Shown piece by piece: positions 13,245 to 29,373 of a DNA stretch of 64,000 nucleotides. Numbering within the stretch: the stretch's first letter is position 1; every line of letters starts with the position of its first letter. Below the pieces are notes generated by a model, which was not told the origin of the DNA, did no database searches, and saw only the letters and a program-made list of their open reading frames with translations. The position numbers and the translations under genes were made by a program. The DNA is from a virus, in IMG/VR virus record IMGVR_UViG_3300045988_114759, one strand, 5' to 3'.

Positions 13245-13261
13245 CTAAAAAAAGTAAGACA

Positions 13262-13782: not shown

Positions 13783-14115
13783 TTGCAGAAATGCAGGGGT
13801 TCCATACGTTTGTATCCAAGAATCCCATTTGCTTTAGCGATGGGAGTATGTCAATACAATATGCTCACTTGGAAGAAAAGAGCTATTTCAAACGTGTATG
13901 CTGACCCAGCCAAGGAGAGAGAGAAAGGCGTGCGTGCCGGGGCTGAGGCTGTGAGGAAGTCGGCCTGGGATGCGTTCAGGGCGCAGTGCCCGCACATTGC
14001 TTTCCCCTATGGAAATGAATTTCCGATGTGTGACGATCACGAACAAGATCATCCCATGAGAGACTGCATTCTTCAGTGTGAAAAAGGTAGAATATTTAAA
14101 AACAAATTAAAATGA
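13783..14115 (+). CDS. hypothetical Cys/His-rich protein; the 5' end lies inside a dispersed repeat
   Basis: 110 aa. The first ~25 codons fall within the ~60-bp repeat also present, inverted, at 23.8 kb. The C-terminus is Cys/His-rich (CPHIAF...CDDHEQDHPMRDCILQC). Confidence 0.35.
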   Translation: MQKCRGSIRLYPRIPFALAMGVCQYNMLTWKKRAISNVYADPAKEREKGVRAGAEAVRKSAWDAFRAQCPHIAFPYGNEFPMCDDHEQDHPMRDCILQCEKGRIFKNKLK

Positions 14116-14381
14116 GCACCCCACGTGAATTAAGCAGGATAGCTAATAGGATAGCCGGTAAGATGACTGATGATGGATGGGTCAGCCCCGGTAGGAAGAA
14201 TCTTGTCTCCGATAAGAAGGTTATGGAATTAATAGATTTGATCTTTAATGAAATATGGAGGGAATTAGATGACGGGAAAAGAGTCCATATCAGAAAACAG
14301 ATGATTTTAAAAAAGATTTTTGTCAGTAGGCAAAAAGATAAATACTACATACAATGCATAGAAAAAAGGGACGCCAAATAG
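14112..14381 (+). CDS. hypothetical protein
   Basis: 89 aa with an ATGA overlap to the upstream ORF. Confidence 0.4.
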   Translation: MSTPRELSRIANRIAGKMTDDGWVSPGRKNLVSDKKVMELIDLIFNEIWRELDDGKRVHIRKQMILKKIFVSRQKDKYYIQCIEKRDAK

Positions 14382-14398
14382 ACGCCCCTTTTCTTTTT
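14366..14398. terminator. bidirectional hairpin terminator at a convergent gene junction
   Basis: The aaaaggg...ccctttt stem sits between the + gene ending at 14381 and the - gene ending at 14412. It is followed by a T-run on the + strand and an A-run on the - strand. Confidence 0.5.
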
Positions 14399-14411
14399 CT
14401 GTAAGTAATTG

Positions 14412-15068
14412 TTATTTCATTACTTTCCTTACCAACTTAGAAACAGCTTGCGTGATAGTCCACCTTATGTTAGCACTAACATTGATAGTCTGAGAAGTAC
14501 CGTTTGCATCCAAGTTAATTACCTCCTTGTCTAATTTCAAGAACGGATCACCTGCTGTCTGGGTAATAACCGTATTAGCTGTCTGACCACCAGCGGTCGT
14601 CACCTCAAGAGTATTTACCAGATCGTTTGTATTAGTGTTCGCTGCAATACCGGAGAATACGATACTGAAAGCAAAGCCCTCTGTTGCACCAGGGTCGTTG
14701 GCAATAGCAGCGCCGTTGCTGGTATCCTTGCCTGCCGCCCGATAACTGGCAGGCATTTTCAGCGTCAGAGGATGAGTCTTGTCCGGAGTTGAGGAGAACG
14801 TTAATTTAGTTGAGTTACTTGTACCGTTGATCGTTACAGTACCACCTTCTTTTCCTACGGATACAGTAGAATCTATTTTTACAAACTCAGCTGCCGCAGC
14901 TTGGTTTATGGTAACACTTTTCTTAACTCCCCCAGATTCGGCGCCAAATTCTACTTGTTGCGTGCGTCGTGTACGACCTTCGTATTTTTCACCTGATACG
15001 GTAACCGCCTGATTACCATCACCTGATCCCGGATTGAAGGTTACAAAACCTATTTTCAATTCTGCCAT
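14412..15068 (-). CDS. structural protein with bacterial Ig-like (BIG2-type) domain
   Basis: 218 aa, Thr/Gly/Ser-rich. The C-terminal segment LKLDKEVINLDANGTSQTINVSANIRWTIT resembles BIG2 domains found in capsid-decoration and major tail proteins. Confidence 0.5.
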   Translation of the reverse strand: MAELKIGFVTFNPGSGDGNQAVTVSGEKYEGRTRRTQQVEFGAESGGVKKSVTINQAAAAEFVKIDSTVSVGKEGGTVTINGTSNSTKLTFSSTPDKTHPLTLKMPASYRAAGKDTSNGAAIANDPGATEGFAFSIVFSGIAANTNTNDLVNTLEVTTAGGQTANTVITQTAGDPFLKLDKEVINLDANGTSQTINVSANIRWTITQAVSKLVRKVMK

Positions 15069-15311
15069 AACATAAATAATTTTGTAGTTAATTAATATCT
15101 TGACAAAGATAGATTTATTATACGAAAATCATATTATTCATGTTTATAAATTAAAAGTTATCTTTATCCCAAAATAAGACAATCATGAGAAGAAGATTTT
15201 TTAACAAAATAGGGGGGCGGTCTCCCTACTGATAATTTTATAGTTTTTGATAAATCTGTATCAGATCCTGCTAATATAACAATAAGCGAAGACTTCGATT
15301 TTTTATATAGG

Positions 15312-16298
15312 TTGATTACCAGTGGCTTCTATAGAGTTCTTTGCAAGAGCGCTATGGGAGGAGGAGAGGTTTTTGTATGTAGGTTGAAGGAAGACAACAG
15401 CAATTTGTATCTTGATGGCAGTCCGGCTGTTCTTACCGGAGAAGAAGGTGATGTGATGGTCGTTTTCTTAGAATTTTGGTATAAGTGGTATAAGGTGGAT
15501 GATAATAGATTTCTTTATCATTTTGCTGATCATGATATCGACGGTACTTACATTCATGTCCCGCAATCTCTTGTTGGAGCATATAAAGGATATGTGTCTT
15601 CAAATAGACTATATAGCTGGAGTGATGTTACTCCTACGACGAACGTATCATTATCTGATTTCAGAAGTTACGCAAAAGCACGTGGTACCGGTTTCCAGGT
15701 GATAGATTTTCAACAACATTGTGTGATTGCTATGATGTTGTATGCTAAGTACAAAACACGTAACCTGCAAGGCGTATTAGGACCCGGTGGCGCAACCGGT
15801 GGTGCGGCTACAACAACGGGAAGCAGCAACGCAACCGGTGGTGCGGATACCGAAAACGAAAGTTCAAAGTATGTTTGCGGCTTAGGACTTGAAGGTGTAT
15901 TTGGCGGTATCTGTGAATGGGTTGAAGGTGTAGAAATAAACAACCGAGTTTGGAAAATCACCGACCCGGACGGTTCGACTCGCAATGTGAACGCCGAGAC
16001 TTTCAGCGGTTGGATAATAAATATAGCAGCCGAAAATGGTCCGTTTTTTGATGTGGTGCCGACACAAGTTGGCGGTAGCGATTCCACGCATTATTCAGAT
16101 TACTATAGTCGGACATCAGACAGCTCCCTTGTTTTGGCGCGCTCCGGTTACCGCTCGTGTCCGACTGGCGGCGTGGCGTATACGGATGCGGCTTACGATG
16201 CGTCGGACATGGATTCGAGCTACGGTTCTCGTCTTGCTTTCCACGGAACCATATCCGAATTGGCTCCAAGGCAATTCAAAAGATTACCCGTATTATAA
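15312..16298 (+). CDS. glycine-rich putative virion/tail-fibre-like protein
   Basis: 328 aa with a G/T/A-rich stretch (GPGGATGGAATTTGSSNATGG), then a Ser/Tyr/Asp-rich C-terminus. No enzyme motif. Confidence 0.45.
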   Translation: MITSGFYRVLCKSAMGGGEVFVCRLKEDNSNLYLDGSPAVLTGEEGDVMVVFLEFWYKWYKVDDNRFLYHFADHDIDGTYIHVPQSLVGAYKGYVSSNRLYSWSDVTPTTNVSLSDFRSYAKARGTGFQVIDFQQHCVIAMMLYAKYKTRNLQGVLGPGGATGGAATTTGSSNATGGADTENESSKYVCGLGLEGVFGGICEWVEGVEINNRVWKITDPDGSTRNVNAETFSGWIINIAAENGPFFDVVPTQVGGSDSTHYSDYYSRTSDSSLVLARSGYRSCPTGGVAYTDAAYDASDMDSSYGSRLAFHGTISELAPRQFKRLPVL

Positions 16299-16378
16299 TA
16301 TCATATTTTAATTGTTTTTTAAATTGTATTGTTAATATTATTACGTATATTTGCGATACAATTTAAAAACATTATATC

Positions 16379-16801
16379 ATGAAGATAAACTTTTTAAGCA
16401 GTAAGGTTTATGTAGGTTCTAAGACAAAAGAAGCTAAAATCAGAAAGCTTTCTATTAGCAAAGATCGGATTATGACCATATCGGTAGATAACCTGAAATG
16501 GATGGGTATCGAAGATGCGGTTCTGATTGGTATGGAAGAAGGAGCTGAGTTTAAAGGGGTGTTGGATTCTAATTTGTATATAGCTCCTTCTAAGGTAGAA
16601 GACGAGAGATCGTTTTTATTAAATAAACAAGGTGAGAAATATAGACGTATTTACCTCCGTGATGTACTGTCTTCGCTGGGTTGGGATATCGGTGATAATA
16701 AGTATGCGGTTTATGATATTGTGAAGATTAAGGACGAAGATGGTGTGTTCTGCCTGGTTCCGAGAGAGATTAAGAAAAGCAAGTTTGAAAAAGGAGAATG
16801 A
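16379..16801 (+). CDS. hypothetical protein
   Basis: 140-aa ORF. Confidence 0.45.
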   Translation: MKINFLSSKVYVGSKTKEAKIRKLSISKDRIMTISVDNLKWMGIEDAVLIGMEEGAEFKGVLDSNLYIAPSKVEDERSFLLNKQGEKYRRIYLRDVLSSLGWDIGDNKYAVYDIVKIKDEDGVFCLVPREIKKSKFEKGE

Positions 16802-16802
16802 T

Positions 16803-17360
16803 ATGGTACAAGATATTGATATAAAATCCAAACGAATATTATTGTTTGATTTTGATGGAACGCTTATAGAAACCGCTTCTGGGAATACGTTCGCTACAGA
16901 CTTGACAGATATGAGGATTAAGATGGATGTGGTGAATAAGGCTCTTGACCTCATGTAGGAGAACGGTGTTAAGGTATTTGCTATCGTAAGCAATCAAGGA
17001 GGAGTAGAAGCTGGGTTTGTTTCTGGAGCTGATATTGAAGCTAAGATAGAATACGTACTGAGGTGCGTACATGATCTGGCGGTAAAGAGAGGCATAAGAG
17101 GCGTCTTGTATGAAAAAAGGTTGTGTTATTCAAATGACGAACAAAATCCGATGAGGAAGCCTAACACGGGCATGATTGATGATATTCTTATGAAGTGTAA
17201 AGACACGGTAATGCGCGGTATGAACTTCAGTCAACTTAAGGGATGTTCGTTGATGGTCGGGGACGCCAGTGGTCTGCCAGGTCAGTTCTCTGATTCGGAT
17301 AAGGTATGTGCTTATAATGCTGGTATTGACTATATGGATAATTACTACGTTTTTGGATAA
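16803..17360 (+). pseudogene. HAD-superfamily phosphatase interrupted by a single in-frame TAG at 16956-16958
   Basis: Motif I LFDFDGTL (DxDGT). After the TAG, the same frame continues with motif II IVSNQGG, motif III RKPNTGMI and motif IV MVGDASGL. The order and spacing resemble GmhB/PNK-type 3'-phosphatases. The ORF table splits this frame into 16740-16958 and 17106-17360. Confidence 0.6.
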
Positions 17361-17682
17361 AGATCTTGATTTAGAATATGTATTGTCCAAAGAACATACA
17401 AGTGAAGGAATAGTTATTTTAAATAATGGCTATATATATATCCTTGAAAATCCATATGGTGTTGGTCTTAATATAAAAATCACTTTAAAAGATTTTTATA
17501 AGATTGAAACCGATGATGGAAAAAATGCAACCGTAGATGATGTGCTGAATATAAGGATTGATAAAGATCGGAATTTCAATTCATATAGTGATGTTGTAAA
17601 GATAGAGGTATTAGAAGACGGTAGTATCAAATATATAAGTTTGTATCATGAAAGTAAAGAAAGCAGCGATAGTTTATCATAA
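17269..17682 (+). CDS. hypothetical protein (start uncertain)
   Basis: ORF in another frame overlapping the 3' end of the HAD gene. There is no internal Met after residue 17, and a TTG start near 17353 is possible. Confidence 0.3.
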   Translation: MVCQVSSLIRIRYVLIMLVLTIWIITTFLDKDLDLEYVLSKEHTSEGIVILNNGYIYILENPYGVGLNIKITLKDFYKIETDDGKNATVDDVLNIRIDKDRNFNSYSDVVKIEVLEDGSIKYISLYHESKESSDSLS

Positions 17683-18607
17683 ATCGGATTTAGATGGCGT
17701 TGTATCGGCAGCCATCGCAACCATGTACGAAAACAGTAAAGACAGGGATGTTATTTATATCCCGTATTCGTATGAAGATGATGTTAAGAAAGTTACCAGC
17801 AAGGTGAGTGACTTAGATGTTGTTTACGTTCTTGACGTGTCTTTTGGAGCCGATTCTAAAACGGTTTTCAAGAAGTGGCTTGATGAAGGAAAGAGCCTGA
17901 TGTGGATAGATCATCATAAGGGGATTATCGAAGATAGTAAGACATGGGGGTTCGTAGTTCCAGGGTTGAGGAGAGTCGGTACCGGTGCGTGCGCACTTGC
18001 TGCCGACCTGCTGATGGGGAAGGTGCCGGCGATCGTCCGGTGTCTGTCAGACTACGATGTGTGGAATAAAGAATCCGGTTTAGGCTGGGATACGGTAGTA
18101 GCTGTCCAGTATGCCTTGAGATCAAAAATTCGATTGAATGTGTTAATAGCATTGTCGTACTTGTATGATCACTTTAAAGAAAATATGAAAGACAATGAAA
18201 TTGATCTTATTTTTTATGATCTTGCTAAAGAAGGACGTGCTATAATTAACTACATGGCTGGTAAAAACGAAGATGAGGTAAGTAGGTGTTCGTTCGAAGC
18301 GCACGTCGATGAGGTGAAGGTTGTAGCGATGAATACCGCTGAATCAGGTTCTAAGGTATTTGATTCTCTTACACCGGACTGGTTAGACGGTAGAAAAATT
18401 AAAGCTTTGATGCCATTCTGTATCATGCCAGGTGGAAAAGTTAGGTTCTCTCTTTACAAATGCGTAGAAGACGGCGTAGATTGCTGTGAGGTAAGTAAGA
18501 GATTCGGTGGTGGAGGACATGCCGGTGCTGCTGGATTCGTTATAGACGTATCAAGCGACCAATTTAAGGACTTCCTTGAAAACCACAAACTTACTTCAAT
18601 TCAATAA
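17648..18607 (+). CDS. DHH-DHHA1 phosphoesterase (NrnA-like nanoRNase / pAp phosphatase family)
   Basis: N-terminal YHKSDLDGVVSAA (DHH motif I). MWIDHHKG (DHH motif). C-terminal GGGGHAGAAGF (the GGGH signature of DHHA1). Confidence 0.8.
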   Translation: MKVKKAAIVYHKSDLDGVVSAAIATMYENSKDRDVIYIPYSYEDDVKKVTSKVSDLDVVYVLDVSFGADSKTVFKKWLDEGKSLMWIDHHKGIIEDSKTWGFVVPGLRRVGTGACALAADLLMGKVPAIVRCLSDYDVWNKESGLGWDTVVAVQYALRSKIRLNVLIALSYLYDHFKENMKDNEIDLIFYDLAKEGRAIINYMAGKNEDEVSRCSFEAHVDEVKVVAMNTAESGSKVFDSLTPDWLDGRKIKALMPFCIMPGGKVRFSLYKCVEDGVDCCEVSKRFGGGGHAGAAGFVIDVSSDQFKDFLENHKLTSIQ

Positions 18608-18617
18608 ATTAATAAGG

Positions 18618-18662
18618 TCGTGTTTTAAATAGGATTGGTTTCTATCAATCCTATTTTTTTTT
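18618..18662 (+). terminator. intrinsic terminator after the DHH gene
   Basis: The 9-bp stem aataggatt/aatcctatt is followed by T9. Confidence 0.6.
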
Positions 18663-18679
18663 GTGTTGCGTGGAGAGGC

Positions 18680-19045
18680 GGGTGTGATGATGATAAAATG
18701 AGAAATAGGTTTGTGCGATGGGAGAGAAAGACAGAAATAGGTTTGTGTGATGTGGGAGAAAGACAGAAATAGGTTTGTGTGATGTGGGAGAAAGACAGAA
18801 ATGGGTTTGTGTGATGGGAGAGAAAGACAGAAATGGGTTTGTGTGATGGGAGAGAGGGGCAGAAATAGGTTTGTGTGATGGGAGAGAGAAAGACAGAAAT
18901 AGGTTTGTGTGATGGGAGAGAGGGGGTGTGATGATGATAAAATGAGAAATAGGTTTGTGCGATGGGAGAAAGACAGAAATAGGTTTGTGTGATGGGGGAG
19001 AGGGGGGGGGGAAATAGGTTTGTGTGATGTGGGAGAGGGGGTACC
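18680..19045. repeat. tandem direct repeat array (~10 imperfect copies of a ~32-35-bp unit GAAATAGGTTTGTGTGATGGGAGAGAAAGACA); iteron-like
   Basis: Counted directly in the sequence. Copies vary by gtg/gcg and by gggagag length. The array lies in a ~900-bp non-coding region followed by AT-rich palindromes. Confidence 0.85.
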
Positions 19046-19519
19046 TATCACGAACCTCCCGCCCCCGAAACGCGTTTTCTACCCCACACCCCCCTTCGCT
19101 TGAAAACCGGAAACGCGTTTTTACCTCAAACCTACAAACTCTCTGATTATCAATCATTTATTTAAATTATTGATAATCAATGTGTTATTATAACATATTG
19201 ATTATAAGCCACTTAAATAAGCATATATCCCACATATTAATGTACGCGTGTAATACCGCTCCTGTATGTTTTTTATAACTTGCTGATAATCAGATAATAT
19301 AATCGAAATTAATACAAATTAACAAAAAAAAGATAGCATATATATTTGTAATATTGATAAATGTCGTATATTTGCGTCGTGATCGAGAGAGATCGCAAGT
19401 TAACATGATGAGCCTATATAGTGTACCCGTTGGGCTAACTATATATGTATCTGTTAATCGCCTGCGTTGTGGGCTATTGAATTGAATATCACTTGTTTAA
19501 CAAATAAATACATAATGTT

Positions 19520-20047
19520 ATGATTACGAAAAAAAACATTAACAAGCTACAGAACGCTGTTATCAAAGAAAATGCTGCAAATTTGGTTGGTGCCGTAAAG
19601 TTATACAACGCTTTATTTGCAAATGGAGCTGATCTCAAGGCTATTTGCAAGGCCTTGGAAATACCAGCCGAATATGCTGTAAAGGTTGCATCTCTCGCTA
19701 AAGATAAAAAACGTCTGGTAGCCGTGTGTAGCCAAATGTTACCAAAGGTTGGCGATACCTTCGTAAAATTTACCTTGTATTCTAAAATATACAAAGATAG
19801 TAAGGTTAACAAGGAAAAAGGTATCGAGAATAAAGAGGTGAAAAATATCGCCTACGGTGAAGAGTATAAGCCTTTTGGGTTTGCTTCTCCCGAACCTTTG
19901 GAAGGTAAGAACAGCGCAAAGTGGCTCACTCGTGAAACCGACGAGTATAGAGCTACTTATGTAGCGACACGAATCGCTTCTTACTCAATCCGTACCATCG
20001 CAAAGTGTGTAAGTGAATACCTCGCACATGAAAGCAACCAGCAGTAA
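19520..20047 (+). CDS. hypothetical protein
   Basis: 175-aa ORF after the repeat/AT-rich region. Confidence 0.45.
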   Translation: MITKKNINKLQNAVIKENAANLVGAVKLYNALFANGADLKAICKALEIPAEYAVKVASLAKDKKRLVAVCSQMLPKVGDTFVKFTLYSKIYKDSKVNKEKGIENKEVKNIAYGEEYKPFGFASPEPLEGKNSAKWLTRETDEYRATYVATRIASYSIRTIAKCVSEYLAHESNQQ

Positions 20048-20544
20048 CAAGGCACGGAGAGCGCCGTTAAGCTCTCCAAAGGTTTGACGCGTACCGTTAA
20101 ACGTGTCTGTACGCCGTTGTCAGTGGGTGCACGTCCCGCGTATGCTTTAGACTGAAGCTGACAAAATAGAGAGTTATTTTACATATTGGAGATAGATATA
20201 CCATTGCCCTTGCCGTTGGCAATTAAAGGGCCGGTATTACTGCATGGACTATCCGAATAGGTATGGTTTATGTTAGGTATGTGAGTATAGTTTAGAAAAT
20301 ATACCGTTGTACGAGGTTTGTCTCCGTTCGGGAACGTGTCTTACTTGCCTACACGTAAAATAGGACAAGGCTGTAGATTAAATTACAGGGTATGAGCATG
20401 TAACCTATCATGTAGGAGCATCTTATATCAAAACGCAAGGACACAATCGCCTTTATTTGTGGCTAAATTGTGTAGCAGACGGAAAATATAATAACAACAT
20501 AGTACGGGCCTGTACGCAAGAACTACGTACTAATTACGGGCTGT

Positions 20545-20608
20545 TGGTTGTAGCATAAAATCTCTATAGGATAGGAATGCGTGTCCGGTTCGATTCCGGA
20601 GCAACCTC
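20545..20608 (+). other. tRNA-3'-half-like element (T-arm tccgg-TTCGATT-ccgga plus acceptor-like stem tggttgt/gcaacct), too short to be a full tRNA
   Basis: Only 32 nt separate the acceptor 5' strand and the T-stem, where about 41 are needed. The element lies immediately upstream of the small ORF at 20632. Confidence 0.4.
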
Positions 20609-20631
20609 TAAATTATAAACAATATAATAAC

Positions 20632-20838: not shown

Positions 20839-20842
20839 ATAG

Positions 20843-20885
20843 GAATAGGGTTGTTTCGAATATCGGAGCAGCCCTATTTTTGTAT
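20843..20885 (+). terminator. putative intrinsic terminator
   Basis: Stem atagggttg/cagccctat followed by TTTTTG. Confidence 0.4.
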
Positions 20886-21390: not shown

Positions 21391-21576
21391 GGCGTGTGCT
21401 GAAGACTCTCTATTCTCTCTATGGAATGATATTATCTCCAAACACCCCACACTTCATGCCAGAGTATAAGCTTGTAGCGCTCTTCGTATGCCGGTAGTGA
21501 GGCGGTAGGGCGCAGGTTCTATGCGGAAAGATAGAGGATTAGACGGGGTGGGATTGGGGGAGAGGGAGGGCACTCT

Positions 21577-21850
21577 CCTCCAACAAAATTCAATAGATCA
21601 GAGCTTTAAAACAGCCAACAAAACTCAATAGATCAGAGCTTTAAAACAGCATTTTGTGGTTTCTTCCAACAAAATTCAATAGATCAGAGCTTTAAAACAG
21701 CCAACAAAATTCAATAGATCAACGTTTTAAAACAGCATTTTGTAGTTTCTTCCAACAAAATTCAACAGATCAACGTTTTAAAACAGCATAATGTAGGATT
21801 TTCCAACAAAATTAAGACTTACAGCGTTTTTAAAACAGTATTCTGTAGGT
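21577..21850. repeat. second tandem repeat array (~7 copies of ~35-bp unit CCAACAAAATTCAATAGATCAGAGCTTTAAAACAG, alternating with CATTTTGTGGTTTCTT spacers)
   Basis: Counted directly in the sequence. Preceded by the G-rich tract gggtgggattgggggagagggaggg at 21545-21570. Confidence 0.85.
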
Positions 21851-22181: not shown

Positions 22182-22213
22182 GCGGCGCCTTGGGCTAAGG
22201 CCTGCGGTTGTAG

Positions 22214-22537: not shown

Positions 22538-22656
22538 AAAAGGCATTTAAGATATTTTCTATTATGTTTGTCATAGAAATAGTGCTGATAGCTATTTTAG
22601 ATGCTATGGCGTAAGTGAGAAAAATTTCTTCATTAATTTTCTTATGCTTTAAACAG

Positions 22657-22684
22657 AGTGCTCCCGTCTGCGAAGATCGGAGCA
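22657..22684 (+). other. hairpin with conserved loop GTCTGCGAAGAT (copy 1)
   Basis: The gtgctcc...ggagcac stem shares its loop sequence with the terminator hairpin at 27145. Confidence 0.4.
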
Positions 22685-22693
22685 CTTGCTTTA

Positions 22694-22738
22694 TGGGATT
22701 CATGGTGCGGTAGGTCGGTTCGATTCCGGCGATCTCAC
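22694..22738 (+). other. tRNA-3'-half-like element (gtcgg-TTCGATT-ccggc T-arm, tgggatt/gatctca acceptor-like stem)
   Basis: Only 13 nt separate the 5' acceptor-like strand and the T-stem. The element sits immediately upstream of the ORF at 22768. Confidence 0.4.
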
Positions 22739-22767
22739 ACAACATTAAAAACAAAGGAGGAAAGAAA

Positions 22768-23109
22768 ATGAAAGATGGCATTAAATTGCATCCAGAACAC
22801 GGATTGAATCCGTCTATAGAAGTCTGCATGATATGTGGCGAAGAGATGGGGATTGCTTTATTAGGGAATAACATCAAGGGGCAGGCGCCGCATCATATAT
22901 GCACGGGCGAAGTATGTGACAATTGCAAAAAGATAATAGATGATGGAGGTTGTTTTATTATCGAAGTCGAGGATGGATCAGATCAAAAGAATCCGTATCG
23001 TACAGGAAGATATTGTGCGATAAAGAAAGAGGCGGCAAAGAAAATGTTTGGACAGGAGCATAATATTGTGTACATGGAAAAGTCTGCGTACAATCTAATA
23101 ATACCATAA
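22768..23109 (+). CDS. zinc-binding protein (CxxC...HH.C...C..C)
   Basis: 113 aa with the motif CMICGEE...HHICTGEVCDNCKK. Preceded by an AAAGGAGG ribosome-binding site. Confidence 0.45.
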   Translation: MKDGIKLHPEHGLNPSIEVCMICGEEMGIALLGNNIKGQAPHHICTGEVCDNCKKIIDDGGCFIIEVEDGSDQKNPYRTGRYCAIKKEAAKKMFGQEHNIVYMEKSAYNLIIP

Positions 23110-23210
23110 AAATGAAGAGAGATATGTTTACAAAAGAAGAGCGATTATTCATATGGAAAAAGGTATATGCTGTATCATAGAGGGGATGACGCGGCGTGCC
23201 GGTATGTATG

Positions 23211-23245
23211 TGTCGGTTCTGGTTCGATTCTGGGCATCTCACAAA
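23211..23245 (+). other. degenerate third copy of the TTCGATTC..GG/ATCTCACAAACA motif
   Basis: Shares TTCGATTC and ATCTCACA(A/C)AACA with the 22694 copy. Sits upstream of the ORF at 23264. Confidence 0.35.
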
Positions 23246-23263
23246 CAATAAAACAAAAGAGTT

Positions 23264-23494
23264 ATGAGAATATACAAGAATGATATTATAAAGGCGTCAG
23301 CGATAAACACCGGCGCAGACAGAGGTGTGTTACTGTGTTCAATAACAGATTCAGGATTCACGTCTATAGCGGGCGTAATATCGGCTGTTAAGGATAAGTT
23401 ACCAGGCAAAGATCATAAGAAGATGATTTTTGAAATACGGAATGATGGAAGAAACGAATATGGTAGATATAATAATTGTGGAGGAAAAATATGA
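23264..23494 (+). CDS. hypothetical protein
   Basis: 76-aa ORF. Confidence 0.35.
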   Translation: MRIYKNDIIKASAINTGADRGVLLCSITDSGFTSIAGVISAVKDKLPGKDHKKMIFEIRNDGRNEYGRYNNCGGKI

Positions 23495-23766
23495 AATACA
23501 GAGGTCTGTTGCTCCCTATGATATTAGCTGCAATGTGCGGAGATGATGCCTTTGTGCTAAATACTAAAAGGGGAAAAGGAATGCAATCTACATATAGAAG
23601 AGAAAAGATTGTCAGAACAGAAAAAGAATTTGATATTAATGGTACTAAAGTAATGGCATACTCAAGAAAGGATGCCATTAAGAGATTAAAACATAAGAAG
23701 TGGAAAACGTATTTTTATGTTAATGTTAGTTTTTTCATTTTTATTGAAAGGAGCGCCGGCCCGTGA
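23476..23766 (+). CDS. hypothetical protein
   Basis: 96-aa ORF overlapping the previous stop. Confidence 0.35.
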   Translation: MWRKNMKYRGLLLPMILAAMCGDDAFVLNTKRGKGMQSTYRREKIVRTEKEFDINGTKVMAYSRKDAIKRLKHKKWKTYFYVNVSFFIFIERSAGP

Positions 23767-24003
23767 AGGTATGCGCTCTTTGTATTTGTATAATGCTTGA
23801 CATACTCCCATCGCTAAAGCAAACGGGATTCTTGGATACAAACGTACGGAACCCCCGGTTTTACAATCGTTGGAATCACCCGCACTTTCCAACTCGGAAA
23901 TGCCCTTCCGAGGTCGCAAGACAGGGCAAATATAATGTTTAATTATCATCTGACACATAAATGGGATCAGTATTACCATTAAATAACATAAAACAATAAT
24001 AAT

Positions 24004-24258
24004 ATGACAGATAATAACATAGATGTGAATATCGTACCTGTAAGGAATGGCGCGAAACGTGTTGTGGTATCATATTACCATTATTCACGCAAGGGCAAAA
24101 ATCATATGAGTTCCCAAACGGATTACGTTTGGGAAACAAAGAATGAAGAAATGTTTAAATACTTTGAGGCCAGGAGGACAAAAGTATTTTATAGTCAGAT
24201 TCGTGCCATGTGTAGATTCTATGGCAAGAAAAATGTACGTAAATACAAAAAGCTATGA
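24004..24258 (+). CDS. hypothetical protein
   Basis: 84-aa ORF. Confidence 0.35.
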   Translation: MTDNNIDVNIVPVRNGAKRVVVSYYHYSRKGKNHMSSQTDYVWETKNEEMFKYFEARRTKVFYSQIRAMCRFYGKKNVRKYKKL

Positions 24259-25064
24259 TATTAAAAACGACAACCAATGAGTTTTGTTTCATTAACGTAA
24301 GTTTCTATGAAACAATAGCAGATCCTCGCTATTTCTTTGAACAGGATTATGAAGAGATGCCGGAATATGAGGAAGAATCGGATTTTGATTTTGATTCTTA
24401 TTGCAATAAGTTTATTCCTTTTGTACAGGAATGGGCGAATAAGGTGGGCGAACGCCTTTATGAATATGGTGTGAATAACATAAAGGTAATATCGGTCGGA
24501 CATCCAAATGAATACAATTATGGTACCGATTGGATAAACGTAGAGGTAGAGTTTTGTGATGAATGGAGGCAAAAGATGTTATCTAACATTGGTAAGATTG
24601 TTAATGATGATAAATGCGAGAAGTATGCGGAGGCTAATTATCGGTCGGTATCAGGATGCATCTTTTTAGGACCTGAAGATTTAAAGGAATTTGAAAAGAA
24701 AATAATAGAAAGAAAGTCAGATTCGGGATATGATGCAACAATATTATTAAATATGTATCTAACTTTGGCTTTTGTAAAAGAATTTGGATTTAAAGCCGGA
24801 GAAGCGTGGAGTGAAATAACAGAATATGCTTACGGATGTTTATCGTATTCCGATTTTGCAACAACAGAGATGCTTATACCGGAAGGTTCGGAGCATTTAT
24901 TCAAAGACATTTACACGGCAAAGGCCGACGAATTATATCATCATGTCCTGGATAAATTCGGATGGGCGTGGCGTGATCCGAAATATAAATCAGAAACAGA
25001 ATTATGCTCGATGTTAAAATGGGCAAAAGAAAAAGGCTTGACCATTGAAGAGTTAAGTATTTAA
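24255..25064 (+). CDS. hypothetical protein (269 aa)
   Basis: ATGA overlap with the upstream ORF. No motif. Confidence 0.45.
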   Translation: MILKTTTNEFCFINVSFYETIADPRYFFEQDYEEMPEYEEESDFDFDSYCNKFIPFVQEWANKVGERLYEYGVNNIKVISVGHPNEYNYGTDWINVEVEFCDEWRQKMLSNIGKIVNDDKCEKYAEANYRSVSGCIFLGPEDLKEFEKKIIERKSDSGYDATILLNMYLTLAFVKEFGFKAGEAWSEITEYAYGCLSYSDFATTEMLIPEGSEHLFKDIYTAKADELYHHVLDKFGWAWRDPKYKSETELCSMLKWAKEKGLTIEELSI

Positions 25065-25091
25065 TTGTTAAACATAAGGCAGTAGTGGTGC

Positions 25092-25376
25092 GTGAGTATA
25101 GGTGCTGCCGTTAAAATATTTTATAAGATGAAAAAAGAAGAGATTCAAACTATTTTATACACAATCAAAGAAGGAGACAGTATTAAAATCAAAGTACAAG
25201 ACAAAAGTGAAGAGATAAGATTGCGGGATCATGTAAGAAGAACGCAGAAATACGGATACAGGTTTTGTTTGTCTCATTTGCATGATGGAATTTTCTATTT
25301 GGAGAAGTTGGAAGAGGGAGATAAAGATAAATACTATAGAGTAATAAACAGAGGAAATGGAAAGACCGGAGTATAA
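25092..25376 (+). CDS. hypothetical protein
   Basis: 94-aa ORF. Confidence 0.35.
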   Translation: MSIGAAVKIFYKMKKEEIQTILYTIKEGDSIKIKVQDKSEEIRLRDHVRRTQKYGYRFCLSHLHDGIFYLEKLEEGDKDKYYRVINRGNGKTGV

Positions 25377-25600
25377 TAAGCTACGCAAAATGGCTAAGAC
25401 TACCCCAGGTCTGATAGTGGACGAGGCGCAAAACATGATGCGTGTATCGCTATACGATAATGGGGAACTTAAGAAGGTGGCAGTAGTAATGAAATGCGAT
25501 TCTTTTTTACAGTCAAAAAGTAACATAGAAAAGATAATGTTATTATCATCTTCCATAGAAGATAGAAAAAACAAAGAAAAAAATAAAACAAAATCAGAAA

Positions 25601-25984
25601 ATGAACAGAATAACAAAAATAAGAGAAGAAATAGGAGGAAAACAGGTTGATTTGACCTTTTACGGGCGCTTTTGCAGCCTTATCGAAGATGATAGAAAGA
25701 TAATACTAAGGGCGATAAAAAACGGTCGTAAGAAGGGCGTAATTGGAGCCATTCAGCCTGGGAGACATGATAGAATTTGGACCACATGGTCTATTGCTTT
25801 TGATGATTTGAAGGTAGGGGATACGGTAGAGTTCAGTACATCTGGAAAATACAATCCCGGATTTCATGCTACGGAAAAGTATGTAGGGTGTGTAGAATGG
25901 ATAAAAGGATCGGAATGTGCGATAAAAACCGGCAATGGAATGGCGGTAGTATTAATTAAACACATAGAAAGGGTAGTAAAATGA
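25601..25984 (+). CDS. hypothetical protein
   Basis: 127-aa ORF. Confidence 0.4.
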   Translation: MNRITKIREEIGGKQVDLTFYGRFCSLIEDDRKIILRAIKNGRKKGVIGAIQPGRHDRIWTTWSIAFDDLKVGDTVEFSTSGKYNPGFHATEKYVGCVEWIKGSECAIKTGNGMAVVLIKHIERVVK

Positions 25985-26265
25985 TGGGGTTGAGAGAATT
26001 TGTAGAACTTTTTGACAAGAATGAAGTAAAGAATTTGTTTAATGCATTGTCTTCATGTATAGAATACGTAAGGATAGATTTGCATGTATTTAATATAGGT
26101 GCTCATGTTGCGTGTCTGTACAGTAATGATCCTGAATTGCTTTCACAGGCAGAAGGTTGTAATGTGAATATGATAATAGAGGTACCCTACTTGTTTGAAG
26201 CATTTATGGAATACGCTTCACCGGAACTGAAAGCTTATTATGATGAACTAACAAAAGAAGTATGA
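25981..26265 (+). CDS. hypothetical protein
   Basis: 94 aa with an ATGA overlap. Confidence 0.4.
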   Translation: MMGLREFVELFDKNEVKNLFNALSSCIEYVRIDLHVFNIGAHVACLYSNDPELLSQAEGCNVNMIIEVPYLFEAFMEYASPELKAYYDELTKEV

Positions 26266-26744
26266 AAGAGGAAGTAGAACGGATAAAGAAGTTGGTTGGC
26301 ATAGATCATAACAGATGGGAGCAACCTTGTACATGTGATAAATGCAAGAATATGTGTAAGGTTCCTTGTATTGGTACGCCAAAAGACATAGAAGCTATCA
26401 TAGATGCAGGATATGCTGACAGGCTAAAAGAGACAATGTGGATGGTGGGGTATCTTGCAGTGAAAGAAAAACCAATAACGATGATCCAGCCAACAAAAAA
26501 AGACGGGTGGTGCGCATTCCGCCAGCCGGACGGTCTCTGCGAGCTGCATGACCGCGGACTAAAGCCGACTGAAGGAGTTCTGGCTTCTTGCAAGGTGGTT
26601 GAAGAAGACGATATTCCAACATACGAGACATCCGTACTTAGAGCGGTAGCCCACGAGTGGGTTAAGATAGAGAACTTCGCAACTATAATGAGGGTCGTTT
26701 TTAAATACTTGCATTACAATGAACGTAGAGAACAAGATAAATAA
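26262..26744 (+). CDS. Cys-rich protein (CTCDKCKNMCKVPC N-terminal cluster)
   Basis: 160 aa. The N-terminal cluster of 5 Cys plus later Cys/His suggests metal or Fe-S binding. Confidence 0.4.
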   Translation: MKEEVERIKKLVGIDHNRWEQPCTCDKCKNMCKVPCIGTPKDIEAIIDAGYADRLKETMWMVGYLAVKEKPITMIQPTKKDGWCAFRQPDGLCELHDRGLKPTEGVLASCKVVEEDDIPTYETSVLRAVAHEWVKIENFATIMRVVFKYLHYNERREQDK

Positions 26745-27123
26745 GATAGCTAAGATCTTAAAAGAAAAAGGATTTATTGTGTATAAGAAAGGCGGAAAGG
26801 AACCAGGTGTGTTTTACGCCAAAGAAGGTGACAGCCGGATAGGATTCGTTTATCCCAACAACGGATATATATACGACAGGATAAAGATGTGGTCTTTTTC
26901 AAGGATATATAAACCACATAAGAAAACCGGATCTTCGTGTTTAATGTGTGTCAGCGACGAATTTACTATAGAAAATGCGATTAAGAACATAGGGGATAGA
27001 CTGTGGGTAAATTATATAAAAGATGGTAACGGAAAACGACCAGAAGAATATAAAAATATAAGAGAATTTGTTGGTAGCTTCACTAAATTCTACAACTCTG
27101 TAGAATTAGTTGAGGTTAAGTAG
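26719..27123 (+). CDS. hypothetical protein
   Basis: 134 aa. Confidence 0.4.
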   Translation: MNVENKINKIAKILKEKGFIVYKKGGKEPGVFYAKEGDSRIGFVYPNNGYIYDRIKMWSFSRIYKPHKKTGSSCLMCVSDEFTIENAIKNIGDRLWVNYIKDGNGKRPEEYKNIREFVGSFTKFYNSVELVEVK

Positions 27124-27144
27124 TTTTCCATGTAAGTTAGTTAC

Positions 27145-27181
27145 CGGCACTGGTCTGCGAAGATAGGTGCCGTTTTTTTTA
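27145..27181 (+). terminator. intrinsic terminator; hairpin loop GTCTGCGAAGAT, then T8
   Basis: The cggcac...gtgccg stem is followed by TTTTTTTT. Downstream comes an AAAGGAGG ribosome-binding site and the ATG of the next gene. Confidence 0.65.
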
Positions 27182-27201
27182 TTCAAGAAAGGAGGACAAA
27201 G

Positions 27202-27453
27202 ATGGAGAAAAGAGACAAGAAGATACCTTATGAGGTAGTCATACAGGAAAGAAAAAGGGTGGATTTATACGGTAACATAGTGTATTATATCCATTGGTTT
27301 GATAAATATGGGTACAATATCACAAAAGAATGGAAATTTTGGAGCAAGGGCCCGAAAAAGAAATACGATAGAGTTAATCGTTATCTAACGGATAGTTGGC
27401 TGAAGGAATACTGTGGGAATAACAATTTAAAGATAAGTAGAATAAAGGAATGA
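27202..27453 (+). CDS. hypothetical protein
   Basis: 83 aa with a strong AAGGAGG ribosome-binding site. Confidence 0.45.
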   Translation: MEKRDKKIPYEVVIQERKRVDLYGNIVYYIHWFDKYGYNITKEWKFWSKGPKKKYDRVNRYLTDSWLKEYCGNNNLKISRIKE

Positions 27454-27782
27454 AAACGATAAAAGTAGACAAAGTGATATTATATTACATGGATCGGGTA
27501 GACCCTGACGGGAACTTATACCGGTTCTATGTGTATAAAGGAATGGCATCTGAAATAGAATACTTTTGCACTGAAGAGGCAGGTAATATGACCATACCAA
27601 TCGGAGAAGGAGAGTATGTCAAGATCGTACCAAAAGAAATAGAGAAAATACCGGTAAGGGGATATAGGAAGCTTGCTGGAATATGGAATTGTGAAACATG
27701 TAACGGGAAGGGATGGCATAGGCTTTTTAATTATTTCAAATACAAGCCAGACATATGTTATATTAAAAAACATAGGGCGTGA
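27450..27782 (+). CDS. hypothetical protein
   Basis: 110 aa with an ATGA overlap. Confidence 0.4.
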   Translation: MKTIKVDKVILYYMDRVDPDGNLYRFYVYKGMASEIEYFCTEEAGNMTIPIGEGEYVKIVPKEIEKIPVRGYRKLAGIWNCETCNGKGWHRLFNYFKYKPDICYIKKHRA

Positions 27783-27962
27783 TAAAAATGGAAACACAAG
27801 ATATGAAGTATCATTATTTAATGCCACTATGAATGTGACAAGGTATTTTAATCTGTGGAGAATGAAGCCAGGGATGCATGCTATGATAACAAACGAGTAC
27901 GGAGTCTTGGATATTATAAAAGAAAAATTCGATAACATAAATATAGTGGAATATAGTGGAAT

Positions 27963-28160
27963 ATGGATATAAATAAAAAGAGTAGAAAAGATTATGAGAA
28001 GTTTCTTAACTCAATATCTCCAGATAGAGACGATGAGGCATGGATCATTGGAGGAAAGAACAGGTATTGCGGTAGAGAGAATTATGGCACTATGATCAAA
28101 AGGTATGATCCTATTGGTTTTAATGTAGGATACAGGGAGTGGGTAGAACAGCCAGAGTAA
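27963..28160 (+). CDS. hypothetical protein
   Basis: 65 aa. Confidence 0.3.
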   Translation: MDINKKSRKDYEKFLNSISPDRDDEAWIIGGKNRYCGRENYGTMIKRYDPIGFNVGYREWVEQPE

Positions 28161-28405
28161 GGCGGCGCCCGTCCTGCCATGAGGCCAGCCTAGCTGTTCG
28201 TGGCCAGGGCCATACATTAATCAGATAGTGAACGGCGAAAACAATACATAAAATGGGAAACGAATTAAAACTTAACAGCGCAGAAGAAGCAGAAGTAATT
28301 TTAAGAAATGGTGGCTGATTATAAAGGTCGCATATATGAATATTACGAGTTCAAGAGAGAGGTCATTGATAAGATAAGATAATTATATACCTAAAATAAT
28401 AGTTT

Positions 28406-28720
28406 ATGACATTCAAAGAATTTATGAAAGAAGTGGGCTATAACCTACTGACTACCTTTTGGGAAGATTTTAGTATAGCCGACAAGTATGGTATAGTAGG
28501 TGTCAAAGATACCTACAGACGTGCGTTTAGCGAATGGAAAGACGATTATAAGTTCTTCACGGAATTAACGCTCGTATTGAATCATAAAATCTGGCAGCAT
28601 TATGAAAGCAATCGTGAACTGGCTGCATTGTATGACCGGTTGTGGCGAGAAGCTGACGAGTATGCCATGAGCAACTTTAAGGGAGAAGAACTTGATTATT
28701 ATTACAGAATAACTGATTAG
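28406..28720 (+). CDS. hypothetical protein
   Basis: 104 aa. Confidence 0.4.
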   Translation: MTFKEFMKEVGYNLLTTFWEDFSIADKYGIVGVKDTYRRAFSEWKDDYKFFTELTLVLNHKIWQHYESNRELAALYDRLWREADEYAMSNFKGEELDYYYRITD

Positions 28721-28911
28721 CTATGTTATACCCGTTTTCATTGACGCTTGACTTATATATACAAGCCGAATCGTTTGAAGAAGCCAAGAAATTAGCAGAA
28801 GCATACGTACAAGATGCTTCGTTAGATACAACTGACTATCCGGAAATAGTACAGGATGTGTTGGAAGTGGCAGAGTATGGAATAATTGATGTAGAATAAT
28901 AAATTAATATT

Positions 28912-29187
28912 ATGACAGCAGCAGAAAAATTGCGTATGGAAATAGCGCAAGAAGCACCATTTAGTAAGGACGAATTTATTAGTAAAATCTCTCGTCTAAT
29001 TAAGGCGTATGGATATGCAAGTTTTATTTGCGACAAGCATATTCGAGAAACCGATGTATCGCCTAACGGTAACACGATTCGTATGGTACATGAACAGATA
29101 GCAATTGATTTTGCTCGTTATGAGGGTTTCTTAGTATCATACAAACATAACAGTTATGGTGTTAGATATATAGTATTCACTCTTTGA
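28912..29187 (+). CDS. hypothetical protein
   Basis: 91 aa. The 3' end abuts the third copy of the dispersed repeat. Confidence 0.4.
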   Translation: MTAAEKLRMEIAQEAPFSKDEFISKISRLIKAYGYASFICDKHIRETDVSPNGNTIRMVHEQIAIDFARYEGFLVSYKHNSYGVRYIVFTL

Positions 29188-29373
29188 CATACTCCCATAG
29201 CTAAAGCAAACGGGATTAAAAGAATGTAGCAGGGAAGAGGCATTTGACATCATTCAAGGGTGGGCTAAAGAGTTTGCAGAGGAATATGGGAATTGTGATT
29301 TTGATGGATCATACTATGATGAAATAGATGCATTTATCGAAGAAAAATTAAGAACTATTTAAAATATAAAGAC

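What the first reader, a model, noticed from the sequence alone, without database searches (positions are those of the whole stretch)
13796..29217. Dispersed ~60-bp repeat present as an inverted pair 10 kb apart plus a third partial copy
The same sequence occurs at three sites: 13796-13854 (reverse orientation), 23797-23855, and partially at 29184-29217. Its core is TTGACATACTCCCAT(C/A)GCTAAAGCAAA(C/T)GGGATT, and the longer copies add CTTGGATACAAACGTA(C/T)GGAACCCC. Copies 1 and 2 are inverted relative to each other and bracket the structural/tRNA-like/iteron region. Each carries a 6-bp-stem hairpin (TCCCAT...ATGGGA). Both ORFs overlapping copies 1 and 2 (13783-14115 and 23686-23979) read through it as RLYPRIPFALAMGVCQ. 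But conservation extends beyond the shared peptide, so the signal looks DNA- or RNA-level. Candidate roles are inversion crossover sites, homing-endonuclease targets, promoters for a phage-specific transcription factor, or MITE-like element ends.
Basis: seen in the sequence. Interest (0 to 1): 0.55.

Follow-up and report, generated by a model that had tools for sequence, protein, structure and literature searches.

The report
Gutted TnpB transposon remnants in phage
The three repeat copies are the right-hand ends of small IS605-family (TnpB) transposons that have lost their gene, one of which still carries a complete guide-RNA scaffold; this is a known kind of selfish element, seen here in an epsilon crAss-like gut phage.

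Summary
The repeat is real: three copies, none expected by chance. It is neither a promoter nor an inversion site. It is the right end (RE) of an IS200/IS605-family element, the segment that in full-length copies overlaps the 3' end of tnpB and encodes the 3' part of the omega (guide) RNA.

- **Link to TnpB:** in public viral contigs the same motif lies 20 nt downstream of a full-length TnpB homologue in 72 of 96 occurrences that have enough flank to judge.
- **Boundaries:** similarity always stops at ...GAGTATGTCAA. Left ends always abut TTAC or TTAT. This matches IS608 (TTAC target, TCAA right cleavage site).
- **RNA structure:** a 120-nt structure shows strong covariation (19 of 28 pairs have compensatory changes).
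- **Copy 1 (13694-13854):** a 161-bp internal-deletion derivative that splits an MmcB-like gene. Relatives carry the empty site or a 1,289-bp full-length element at the same position.
- **Copy 2 (23797-23987):** a 191-bp protein-less element made of a left end, a promoter-like site and an intact omegaRNA scaffold. It is present in 7 related contigs and absent from 3 relatives.
- **Copy 3 (29184-29217):** a 34-nt RE stub at a rearrangement junction.

No cognate TnpB lies in the window. This is a new member of a known kind (PATE-like elements) and is of modest interest.

The parts
13694..13854 (+). Mini-element 1 (161 bp): an internal-deletion derivative of a TnpB element. It joins a type-B left end (13694-~13776) to the last ~78 nt of the right end. 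It has no promoter, no tnpB and only the 3' half of the omegaRNA scaffold.
   Evidence: It is a clean insertion between csAssE-Sib record positions 6218 and 6217. Contig L014 has a 1,289-bp full-length element at the identical site with identical flanks, and 1289 - 1128 = 161. The covariance-model hit scores 57 bits, with helix 1 and the 5' strands of helices 2 and 4 missing.
13690..13693 (+). TTAC target/TAM tetranucleotide abutting the left end of mini-element 1.
   Evidence: All 26 distinct left flanks in the family end in TTAC or TTAT. The empty site in csAssE-Sib reads ...GTTTTAC|TACAATATGC....
13708..13727 (+). Left-end subterminal hairpin CCCCTGC-TTTTAA-GCAGGGG (type-B LE).
   Evidence: It is conserved in type-B left ends of the full-length elements L014, L068, L077, L046 and L110. 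The terminator scan also calls it on the opposite strand.
13823..13845 (+). Right-end subterminal hairpin (TCCCATTTGC-TTTA-GCGATGGGA). It is followed by GTATG and the terminal TCAA at 13851-13854.
   Evidence: It corresponds to helix 5 of the consensus structure, in which 6 of 9 pairs show compensatory changes. Similarity among all copies stops exactly after TCAA.
13262..14115 (+). MmcB-like gene split by mini-element 1 into 13262-13693 and 13855-14115.
   Evidence: Removing 13694-13854 in silico restores a 230-aa ORF. Its two parts are 99.3% (aa 1-144) and 98.8% (aa 145-230) identical to csAssE-Sib WOZ57227. With the element in place, the frame hits a stop 3 codons into the insert.
23797..23987 (-). 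Mini-element 2 (191 bp, protein-less, PATE-like): left end, promoter-like site and complete omegaRNA scaffold, ending in TGTCAA at 23797.
   Evidence: It is a clean insertion at csAssE-Sib L001 position 3453. The same element lies at the same locus in L010, L013, L038, L060, L075, L082 and L116. The site is empty in csAssE-Sib, L032 and L057.
23797..23917 (-). Complete 121-nt omegaRNA (reRNA) scaffold.
   Evidence: The covariance-model match scores 123.9 bits, E=1e-33, over the whole model. The MFE fold reproduces the consensus helices. It aligns with the 3' ends of tnpB genes from csAssE-Sib, PF672P2 and IMG/VR contigs.
23929..23956 (-). Promoter-like site GTGTCA-16-TATATT inside mini-element 2, which also contains TATATTTG. 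It points into the scaffold, whose start lies about 12 nt downstream.
   Evidence: Found by the promoter scan. TATATTTG fits the Bacteroidetes -7 motif TAnnTTTG (my own knowledge). The same motif sits ~23 nt upstream of the tnpB ATG in full-length left ends.
23988..23991 (-). TTAT target/TAM tetranucleotide abutting the left end of mini-element 2.
   Evidence: The empty site reads ...TTGTTTTAT|GCATTATACAAATAC...
23777..23796 (-). Flank immediately 3' of the right end (GCATTATACAAATACAAAGA). It would form the guide portion if the omegaRNA is transcribed through the boundary.
   Evidence: Inferred from the architecture of TnpB omegaRNAs (Karvelis 2021; Meers 2023). This sequence follows TTAT in the empty allele.
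29184..29217 (-). Right-end stub: the terminal hairpin plus the TGTCAA terminus only. There is no left end and no scaffold.
   Evidence: The covariance-model hit scores 32.5 bits and covers only helix 5. The inner side of the stub joins at ~29215 to the 3' part of a gene that is uninterrupted in L032 and L033. Similar stubs occur in L029, L069/L113/L115 and L073.

Best explanation
**What the copies are.** They are the right ends of IS200/IS605-family insertion sequences of the tnpB-bearing kind. In a full-length element (~1.29 kb) the layout is:
- a left end with a subterminal hairpin and a promoter;
- tnpB (379 aa);
- a ~120-nt structured segment that overlaps the last ~34 codons of tnpB and runs to the terminus ...GAGTATGTCAA.

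This last segment has two roles. As single-stranded DNA, it is the right-end hairpin and TCAA cleavage site used by a Y1 transposase (TnpA). As RNA, it is the scaffold of the omega/reRNA that guides TnpB. Elements insert 3' of TTAC or TTAT without duplicating the target.

**State of each copy in the window.** All three copies have lost tnpB.
- *Copy 1* is an in-place 1,128-bp internal deletion. It is probably inert and leaves an MmcB-like gene split.
- *Copy 2* is a 191-bp protein-less element that keeps the left end, a promoter-like site and an intact scaffold.
- *Copy 3* is a 34-nt scar.

**Shown:** identity, boundaries, target motif, RNA covariation, presence/absence polymorphism, and the full-length allele at the copy 1 site.

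**Inferred:** copy 2 is transcribed from its own promoter. With a TnpB supplied in trans (for example from the tnpB copy that relatives carry in the structural-gene region), it would direct cleavage of TTAT-GCATTATACAAATAC... in phage genomes lacking the insertion. Recombinational repair during co-infection would then copy the element in (homing). Movement to new sites would need a host-encoded TnpA.
For: **Association with tnpB.**
- BLASTN of the repeat hits the 3' end of the annotated TnpB gene of csAssE-Sib. It also hits the equivalent position downstream of a 360-aa ORF in Parabacteroides phage PF672P2.
- Both proteins match the Pfam families OrfB_IS605 and Cas12f1-like_TNB.
- Of 120 motif occurrences in IMG/VR, 72 follow a full-length TnpB homologue that ends 20 nt before the terminus.

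**Boundaries and target.**
- Similarity ends abruptly at TGTCAA in every copy.
- All 26 distinct left flanks end in TTAT or TTAC.
- IS608 inserts 3' of TTAC and has TCAA as its right cleavage site ~10 nt from the hairpin foot (PMC3201880). Here the distance is 9 nt.

**RNA structure.** 95.8% of cells are paired, against 37-50% in slid controls. 19 of 28 pairs show compensatory changes, and 0 of 500 shuffles reach the observed values.

**Insertion polymorphism.**
- Both insertions are clean relative to csAssE-Sib, with no target duplication.
- The copy 1 site occurs in three states: empty (6 contigs), full-length (L014, and probably L057, where only the right junction lies within the fetched DNA) and mini (the window).

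**Transposase and precedent.**
- Y1 TnpA genes (Pfam Y1_Tnp, 3e-40) sit next to tnpB in bacterial elements with the same right-end motif, including a Prevotella MAG.
- At least six independent protein-less derivatives keep the whole scaffold, with 5' breakpoints within ~25 nt of helix 1.
- Meers et al. describe PATE-like elements that encode omegaRNAs needing TnpB in trans.
Against: - No TnpB of this family is encoded in the 64-kb window, and the rest of this phage genome is unseen. A trans-acting partner for copy 2 is therefore assumed.
- No expression data are available.
- The thermodynamic stability of the copy 2 fold is unremarkable (z = -0.74).
- The left end of copy 2 resembles type-A left ends only in its first ~9 nt. 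It lacks an obvious TnpA-type hairpin, so it may no longer be mobilisable by TnpA.
- Covariation in the terminal hairpin could reflect the ssDNA hairpin needed by TnpA rather than RNA function.
- No Rfam family matches, so the label 'omegaRNA' rests on position, structure and analogy.
Confidence: 0.92

Rival explanations
1. The repeat is a phage promoter or binding site for a phage-specific transcription factor. Its TTGACA would act as a -35 box that starts transcripts at each copy.
For: Each copy begins with a perfect TTGACA. Copies 2 and 3 point in the direction of the downstream + strand genes.
Against: - No -10 partner exists, and the sigma-70 scan does not call these sites.
- TTGACA is the reverse complement of the invariant transposon terminus TGTCAA. 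That terminus occurs in Cyanobacteria, Poribacteria and Bacteroidales next to tnpB.
- Close relatives lack copies 1 and 2 yet have the same downstream genes.
- Copy 1 lies inside a coding sequence.
Confidence: 0.02
2. Copies 1 and 2 are crossover sites for a programmed or recombinational inversion of the 10-kb segment between them.
For: They form a 66-nt, 92% identical inverted pair 9.9 kb apart.
Against: - No invertase context is present.
- csAssE-Sib lacks both copies and is colinear with the window across the segment.
- All 7 contigs carrying copy 2 have the same flanks on both sides.
- Each copy is explained independently as a transposon insertion with its own empty-site allele.
- Rare homologous recombination between 66-nt repeats cannot be excluded, but it would be incidental.
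Confidence: 0.03
3. The copies are domesticated. The phage has exapted the structured RNA (or the hairpin) as a regulatory small RNA, a terminator or an anti-defence decoy, independent of any TnpB.
For: - Copy 2 is conserved at one locus in 7 related contigs, with an intact structure and a promoter-like site.
- No TnpB is found in the window.
Against: - Close relatives do without it (empty sites in csAssE-Sib, L032 and L057).
- The three copies are in three different states of decay, as expected for junk rather than a conserved function.
- The same architecture (left end plus scaffold) arises repeatedly at unrelated loci next to genomes that carry full-length tnpB copies.
Confidence: 0.04

Closest known systems
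IS608 (Helicobacter pylori) and the IS605 group of the IS200/IS605 family
   Same: - Insertion occurs 3' of TTAC (here TTAC or TTAT) with no target duplication.
- The right end terminates in TCAA about 10 nt from the foot of a subterminal hairpin.
- Hairpins are present at both ends and there are no terminal inverted repeats.
- tnpB (OrfB_IS605) lies at the right side.
- A Y1 TnpA is present in bacterial members that share the same right-end motif.
   Different: - The phage copies carry tnpB only (IS1341-like organisation), and the window copies carry no gene at all.
- Left-end subtypes correlate with TTAT versus TTAC targets.
- The host replicon is a crAss-like phage.
TnpB omegaRNA / reRNA (ISDra2, Karvelis et al. 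2021; ISGst, Meers et al. 2023)
   Same: The structured RNA overlaps the 3' end of tnpB and ends exactly at the transposon boundary, so the flank supplies the guide. The TAM equals the transposon's target motif.
   Different: - The scaffold sequence and structure match no Rfam family.
- The TAM is inferred as TTAY rather than TTGAT.
- Nothing here has been tested biochemically.
PATEs (palindrome-associated transposable elements) and the PATE-like omegaRNA-bearing minimal elements of Geobacillus stearothermophilus
   Same: Copies 1 and 2 are protein-less derivatives that keep the left and right ends. Copy 2 keeps a whole omegaRNA, which would need TnpB in trans.
   Different: - They are found in a virulent-type phage genome.
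- Copy 1 can be traced to a specific full-length allele by a 1,128-bp deletion.
- Copy 3 is not a PATE, because it has no left end.
IStrons (IS605/IS607 elements fused to group I introns)
   Same: A tnpB-family element sits inside a protein-coding gene (copy 1 in the MmcB-like gene).
   Different: No intron is present. The 161-bp insert has no ribozyme, no Rfam hit, and shifts the reading frame, so the gene is simply split.

Membership tests
IS200/IS605 family (IS605 group) transposon ends | Full-length members encode TnpB (OrfB_IS605 / RuvC-like with zinc ribbon) adjacent to the right end | tested here: met
   72 of 96 adequately flanked viral occurrences have a 379-aa TnpB homologue ending 20 nt before the terminus. 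Pfam matches are OrfB_IS605, Cas12f1-like_TNB and HTH_OrfB_IS605. This is not met within the window itself: no tnpB is found there.
IS200/IS605 family (IS605 group) transposon ends | Site-specific insertion 3' of a conserved tetra/pentanucleotide, without target-site duplication | tested here: met
   All 26 distinct left flanks end in TTAT or TTAC. Comparison of empty and filled sites shows no duplication.
IS200/IS605 family (IS605 group) transposon ends | Subterminal imperfect-palindrome hairpins at both ends, a conserved right cleavage motif, and no terminal inverted repeats | tested here: met
   - Left-end hairpins are CCCCTGC/GCAGGGG (type B) and CCACC.../...GGTGG (type A).
- The right-end hairpin is followed 9 nt later by the end of TCAA.
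- The left-end start GATCTTTAAC is not an inverted copy of the right-end terminus.
- The IS608 values were taken from PMC3201880.
IS200/IS605 family (IS605 group) transposon ends | Mobilised by a Y1 (HUH) transposase TnpA acting on single-stranded DNA | tested here: inconclusive
   A Y1_Tnp gene (3e-40) lies upstream of tnpB in a Prevotella MAG, and similar ORFs occur in Poribacteria and cyanobacteria with the same right-end motif. No tnpA was seen in the phage elements, and transposition itself is not testable here.
TnpB omegaRNA (reRNA) | Structured RNA that overlaps the tnpB 3' end, terminates at the right-end boundary, and is conserved by covariation | tested here: met
   28-pair consensus, with 19 pairs showing compensatory changes. 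95.8% of cells are paired against at most 50% in slid controls. Copy 2 matches the full model at 123.9 bits.
TnpB omegaRNA (reRNA) | Is transcribed, binds TnpB and guides TAM-dependent DNA cleavage | not testable with these tools
   The only support is a promoter-like site upstream of the copy 2 scaffold.
PATE-like non-autonomous element | Has both left and right ends of the parent IS, has no ORF, and shows clean insertion polymorphism | tested here: met
   Met for copy 1 (161 bp) and copy 2 (191 bp). Not met for copy 3, which has only 34 nt of the right end.
Known Rfam RNA family | Match to a curated covariance model | tested here: not met
   There is no hit over the element in the window or in the csAssE-Sib tnpB locus, even at E<=1-10.

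The most novel reading that the evidence does not exclude
Protein-less 'promoter + omegaRNA' mini-elements such as copy 2 may be selected hyperparasites of phage-borne TnpB. Supplying extra guides in trans would turn a resident TnpB into a multi-target homing/exclusion nuclease. That nuclease would cut co-infecting crAss-like phages lacking the insertions, acting as a gene drive and a competition weapon within phage populations.

Two observations are consistent with this reading: independent deletions repeatedly stop just upstream of the scaffold, and a second orphan guide RNA (IscB-type, HEARO) lies at 36587-36949.
Probability: 0.2. Interest if true: 0.55.

Novelty: new member of a known kind. 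Interest (0 to 1): 0.3.

Why it matters
- **Annotation.** The finding explains a puzzling dispersed repeat as ordinary transposon debris and corrects the local annotation. The ORFs that read through the repeat are spurious, and the MmcB-like gene is split by an insertion.
- **Activity in crAss-like phages.** IS605-family TnpB elements are actively polymorphic in epsilon crAss-like phages. Empty, full-length and gutted alleles occur at one site, and one contig carries up to three full copies.
- **Resources for experiments.** The analysis gives a covariance-supported omegaRNA scaffold and an inferred TTAY TAM for a compact 379-aa TnpB clade. The right-end motif of this clade is shared from Bacteroidales to cyanobacteria, which is useful for anyone testing these nucleases.
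- **Limits.** It does not reveal a new mechanism.

Tried and rejected
- **Rfam.** Gathering thresholds on the whole window, and permissive E-values on the copy 2 region and on the csAssE-Sib tnpB locus, gave nothing over the element. The only hits were chance-level GibS and snoRNA matches.
- **tRNA-like origin.** ARAGORN finds only the three tRNAs at 12957-13245.
- **TnpB in the window.** tblastn found only the short C-terminal remnants inside copies 1 and 2.
- **Further diverged copies.** An unfiltered covariance-model search of the window found none.
- **Sigma-70 promoter reading of TTGACA.** Not called by the promoter scan.
- **Paralogous-protein reading.** The shared peptide is out of frame with the real TnpB C-terminus. 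Pfam finds nothing in the flanking ORFs.
- **Inversion.** No chimeric junctions appear in any related contig.
- **Thermodynamic stability as evidence of structure.** It was uninformative (z = -0.74 to -1.84). Covariation was used instead.
- **Left end of copy 2.** I could not find a full-length element carrying this left-end variant among the loci fetched.

Full report
**Observation.**
The repeat exists as described. The 34-nt core TTGACATACTCCCATCGCTAAAGCAAACGGGATT occurs at 13821-13854 (-), 23797-23830 (+) and 29184-29217 (+) with at most one mismatch. None of 100 dinucleotide-preserving shuffles gave a match. The first two copies extend to 66 nt at 92% identity as an inverted pair (13789-13854 / 23797-23862).

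**Genome context.**
The window is an epsilon crAss-like phage.
- Window 20950-31000 matches phage csAssE-Sib (OR575929.1, 151 kb, human gut) at about 93%.
- Window 1-20920 matches the start of that record at 77-96%.

**What the repeat belongs to.**
A sensitive BLASTN of the repeat against GenBank phages hit five records. The informative hits were:
- the 3' end of the annotated TnpB ('IS605 OrfB') gene of csAssE-Sib;
- the region just downstream of a 360-aa ORF in Parabacteroides phage PF672P2.

Both proteins match the Pfam families OrfB_IS605 and Cas12f1-like_TNB, and the first also matches HTH_OrfB_IS605.

In the tnpB sense, the repeat reads GGGGTTCC...AAGAATC-N7-CTTTAG-N6-GAGTATGTCAA. An alignment of the window copies with these loci shows similarity stopping abruptly after TGTCAA in every sequence. 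It also shows obvious compensatory changes in two hairpins.

I scanned IMG/VR with AAGAATC-N7-CTTTAG-N6-GAGTATGTCAA. The scan returned 120 occurrences before it was capped.
- 72 are preceded by a full-length TnpB homologue whose alignment ends 20 nt before the terminus.
- 7 have partial genes.
- 17 have none, among the 96 occurrences with at least 1.3 kb of flank.

BLASTN against a reference element confirms that the right limit of similarity is the TGTCAA terminus in almost all copies.

**Family features.**
- *Left ends.* Upstream of tnpB, full-length elements have one of two left-end types. Each has a subterminal hairpin and a TAnnTTTG motif ~23 nt before the ATG.
- *Target.* Across 26 distinct insertion sites, the flank ends invariably in TTAT (left-end types A and C) or TTAC (type B).
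- *No duplication.* Comparison of filled and empty sites shows no target duplication.
[quoted passage not shown] Here TCAA ends 9 nt from the foot.
- *Distribution.* The same right-end motif occurs in Cyanobacteria, Poribacteria, Methylococcales, Prevotella, Paludibacteraceae and Porphyromonadaceae genomes. There, 39 occurrences have a full tnpB (25-56% identity).
- *Transposase.* Several of these have an adjacent Y1 transposase. The Prevotella one scores 3e-40 against Pfam Y1_Tnp.

The family is therefore a widespread IS605-group lineage. The phage copies are the tnpB-only form.

**The RNA.**
The last ~120 nt of 24 diverse elements (including window copy 2) fold into a common structure of 28 pairs, and 19 of these pairs show compensatory double changes. 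In total, 95.8% of cells form standard pairs, against 37-50% when the 3' partners are slid by 1-3 columns. None of 500 column shuffles reaches any of the observed measures.

The segment overlaps the last ~34 codons of tnpB. The TAG stop lies in the invariant CTTTAG loop, and the segment ends at the transposon boundary. This is the defining layout of a TnpB omegaRNA (reRNA) scaffold, in which the flank supplies the guide. No Rfam family matches it. The terminal hairpin is probably also the ssDNA hairpin recognised by TnpA, so its covariation serves two masters.

**Copy 1 (13694-13854, + sense).**
- It is a clean 161-bp insertion between csAssE-Sib positions 6218 and 6217, inside the gene annotated 'MmcB-like DNA repair protein'.
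- Removing it in silico restores a 230-aa ORF about 99% identical to the csAssE-Sib protein. With it, the frame stops three codons into the insert.
- Contig L014 carries a 1,289-bp full-length element at exactly this site, with the same flanks (GTTTTAC| ... |TACAATATGCTCAC). The window element equals that element minus an internal 1,128 bp.
- Six contigs (csAssE-Sib, L047, L091, L053, L085, L103) have the empty site.
- The deletion removed the promoter, tnpB and the 5' half of the scaffold. The covariance model scores it 57 bits, with helix 1 and the 5' strands of helices 2 and 4 missing. It is most likely inert.

**Copy 2 (23797-23987, - sense).**
- It is a clean 191-bp intergenic insertion after TTAT, relative to csAssE-Sib.
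- It is present at the same locus in seven related contigs and absent from csAssE-Sib, L032 and L057.
- It contains a short left end, a promoter-like site (GTGTCA-16-TATATT, including TATATTTG) and a complete scaffold. The scaffold scores 123.9 bits over the whole model, and its MFE fold reproduces the consensus.

**Copy 3 (29184-29217, - sense).**
It keeps only the terminal hairpin and terminus. Its inner edge is fused at ~29215 to the 3' part of a gene that is uninterrupted in L032 and L033. Upstream sequence is unrelated to those contigs. It is a deletion scar. Comparable stubs occur elsewhere (L029, L069/L113/L115, L073).

**Inference on function.**
Among the protein-less derivatives seen, at least six independent ones keep the entire scaffold. 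These are the copy 2 group, L016/21/27, L040/47/91/94/103, PF672P1, L117 and L054. They have three different left-end types, and their 5' breakpoints lie within ~25 nt upstream of helix 1. Only two derivatives (L017, L102) are broken within the tnpB ORF. This clustering suggests retention of a usable guide RNA, or a deletion hot spot.

Meers et al. noted PATE-like elements that encode omegaRNAs requiring TnpB in trans. I therefore propose, as inference, that copy 2 is such an element. Transcribed from its own promoter and loaded onto a TnpB encoded elsewhere, it would target TTAT-GCATTATACAAATAC..., which is the empty allele, and be copied in by recombination during co-infection.

The weak points are:
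- no tnpB of this clade lies in the window;
- the rest of the genome is unseen;
- there are no expression data.

Some related phage contigs carry several full copies: three in IMGVR_UViG_3300045988_105165 and two in _111202. Trans supply is therefore plausible in this phage group. The csAssE-Sib paper reports two TnpB genes in some Epsilonunovirus genomes but does not describe the ends, the RNA or the mini-elements.

**Rivals.**
- *Promoter.* The reading fails. TTGACA is just the complement of the transposon terminus, lacks a -10 partner and is not called by the scan.
- *Inversion.* There is no evidence for it. Genomes lacking both copies are colinear, and no chimeric junction was found.
- *Paralogous ORFs.* The shared peptide is out of frame with the true TnpB C-terminus and is a trivial consequence of DNA identity.

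**Verdict.**
The feature is a new member of a known kind (IS200/IS605 PATE-like derivatives carrying omegaRNA sequence), notable mainly for its setting in crAss-like phages. Interest 0.3.

Noticed in passing
window 36587-36949 (HEARO hit 36585-36829, + strand): A ~363-bp segment is absent from csAssE-Sib and sits right after the NinG-like ORF (36086-36598). It contains a full-length Rfam HEARO (IscB omegaRNA) match at 94.8 bits, but no IscB-sized ORF follows. This looks like a second protein-less guide-RNA mini-element, of the IscB type. A 74% similar segment is in MT838317.1.
   Followed up: partly
window 12281-12926 (ORF 12362-12868, +): This is a free-standing NUMOD4 + HNH_3 homing-endonuclease gene. 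It lies in a segment with no counterpart in csAssE-Sib, at the place where that phage has an extra tRNA-Met next to the Gln/Arg/Cys tRNA cluster.
   Followed up: partly
window 18660-19031 and 21576-21834: There is a 32-bp tandem array (about 8-11 units, GAGAAAGACAGAAATAGGTTTGTGTGATGGGA) and 86/51-bp direct repeats. Both lie in a poorly coding stretch near the point where the linear csAssE-Sib record begins and ends (window ~20934). They may be origin or terminus-related iterons.
   Followed up: no
window 2903-3952, 15116-16298 and 27638-30235: These are further blocks with no counterpart in csAssE-Sib, so they are indels or replacements between close relatives. The last one contains copy 3.
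   Followed up: no
L100 ~9050-9152 (IMGVR_UViG_3300045988_095946): Two right-end hairpins of this family sit head-to-head, forming a ~100-bp palindromic RE-RE structure with a TGTCAA terminus on each strand. This is an unusual derivative that ordinary internal deletion does not explain.
   Followed up: no
L029 vs L117 (IMG/VR contigs _107493 and _103465): Both have the same right-end flank (ACTGGTAATTGCATAATTTAATTGA) but keep different amounts of the element (46 nt versus a complete scaffold). This suggests stepwise decay at one locus.
   Followed up: no
L005 3003-3113 and 5412-5522 (Parabacteroides phage PF672P1): This cultured Parabacteroides phage carries two identical protein-less scaffold copies, while its relative PF672P2 has the full tnpB. 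The pair could serve as an experimental system for trans-acting omegaRNAs.
   Followed up: no
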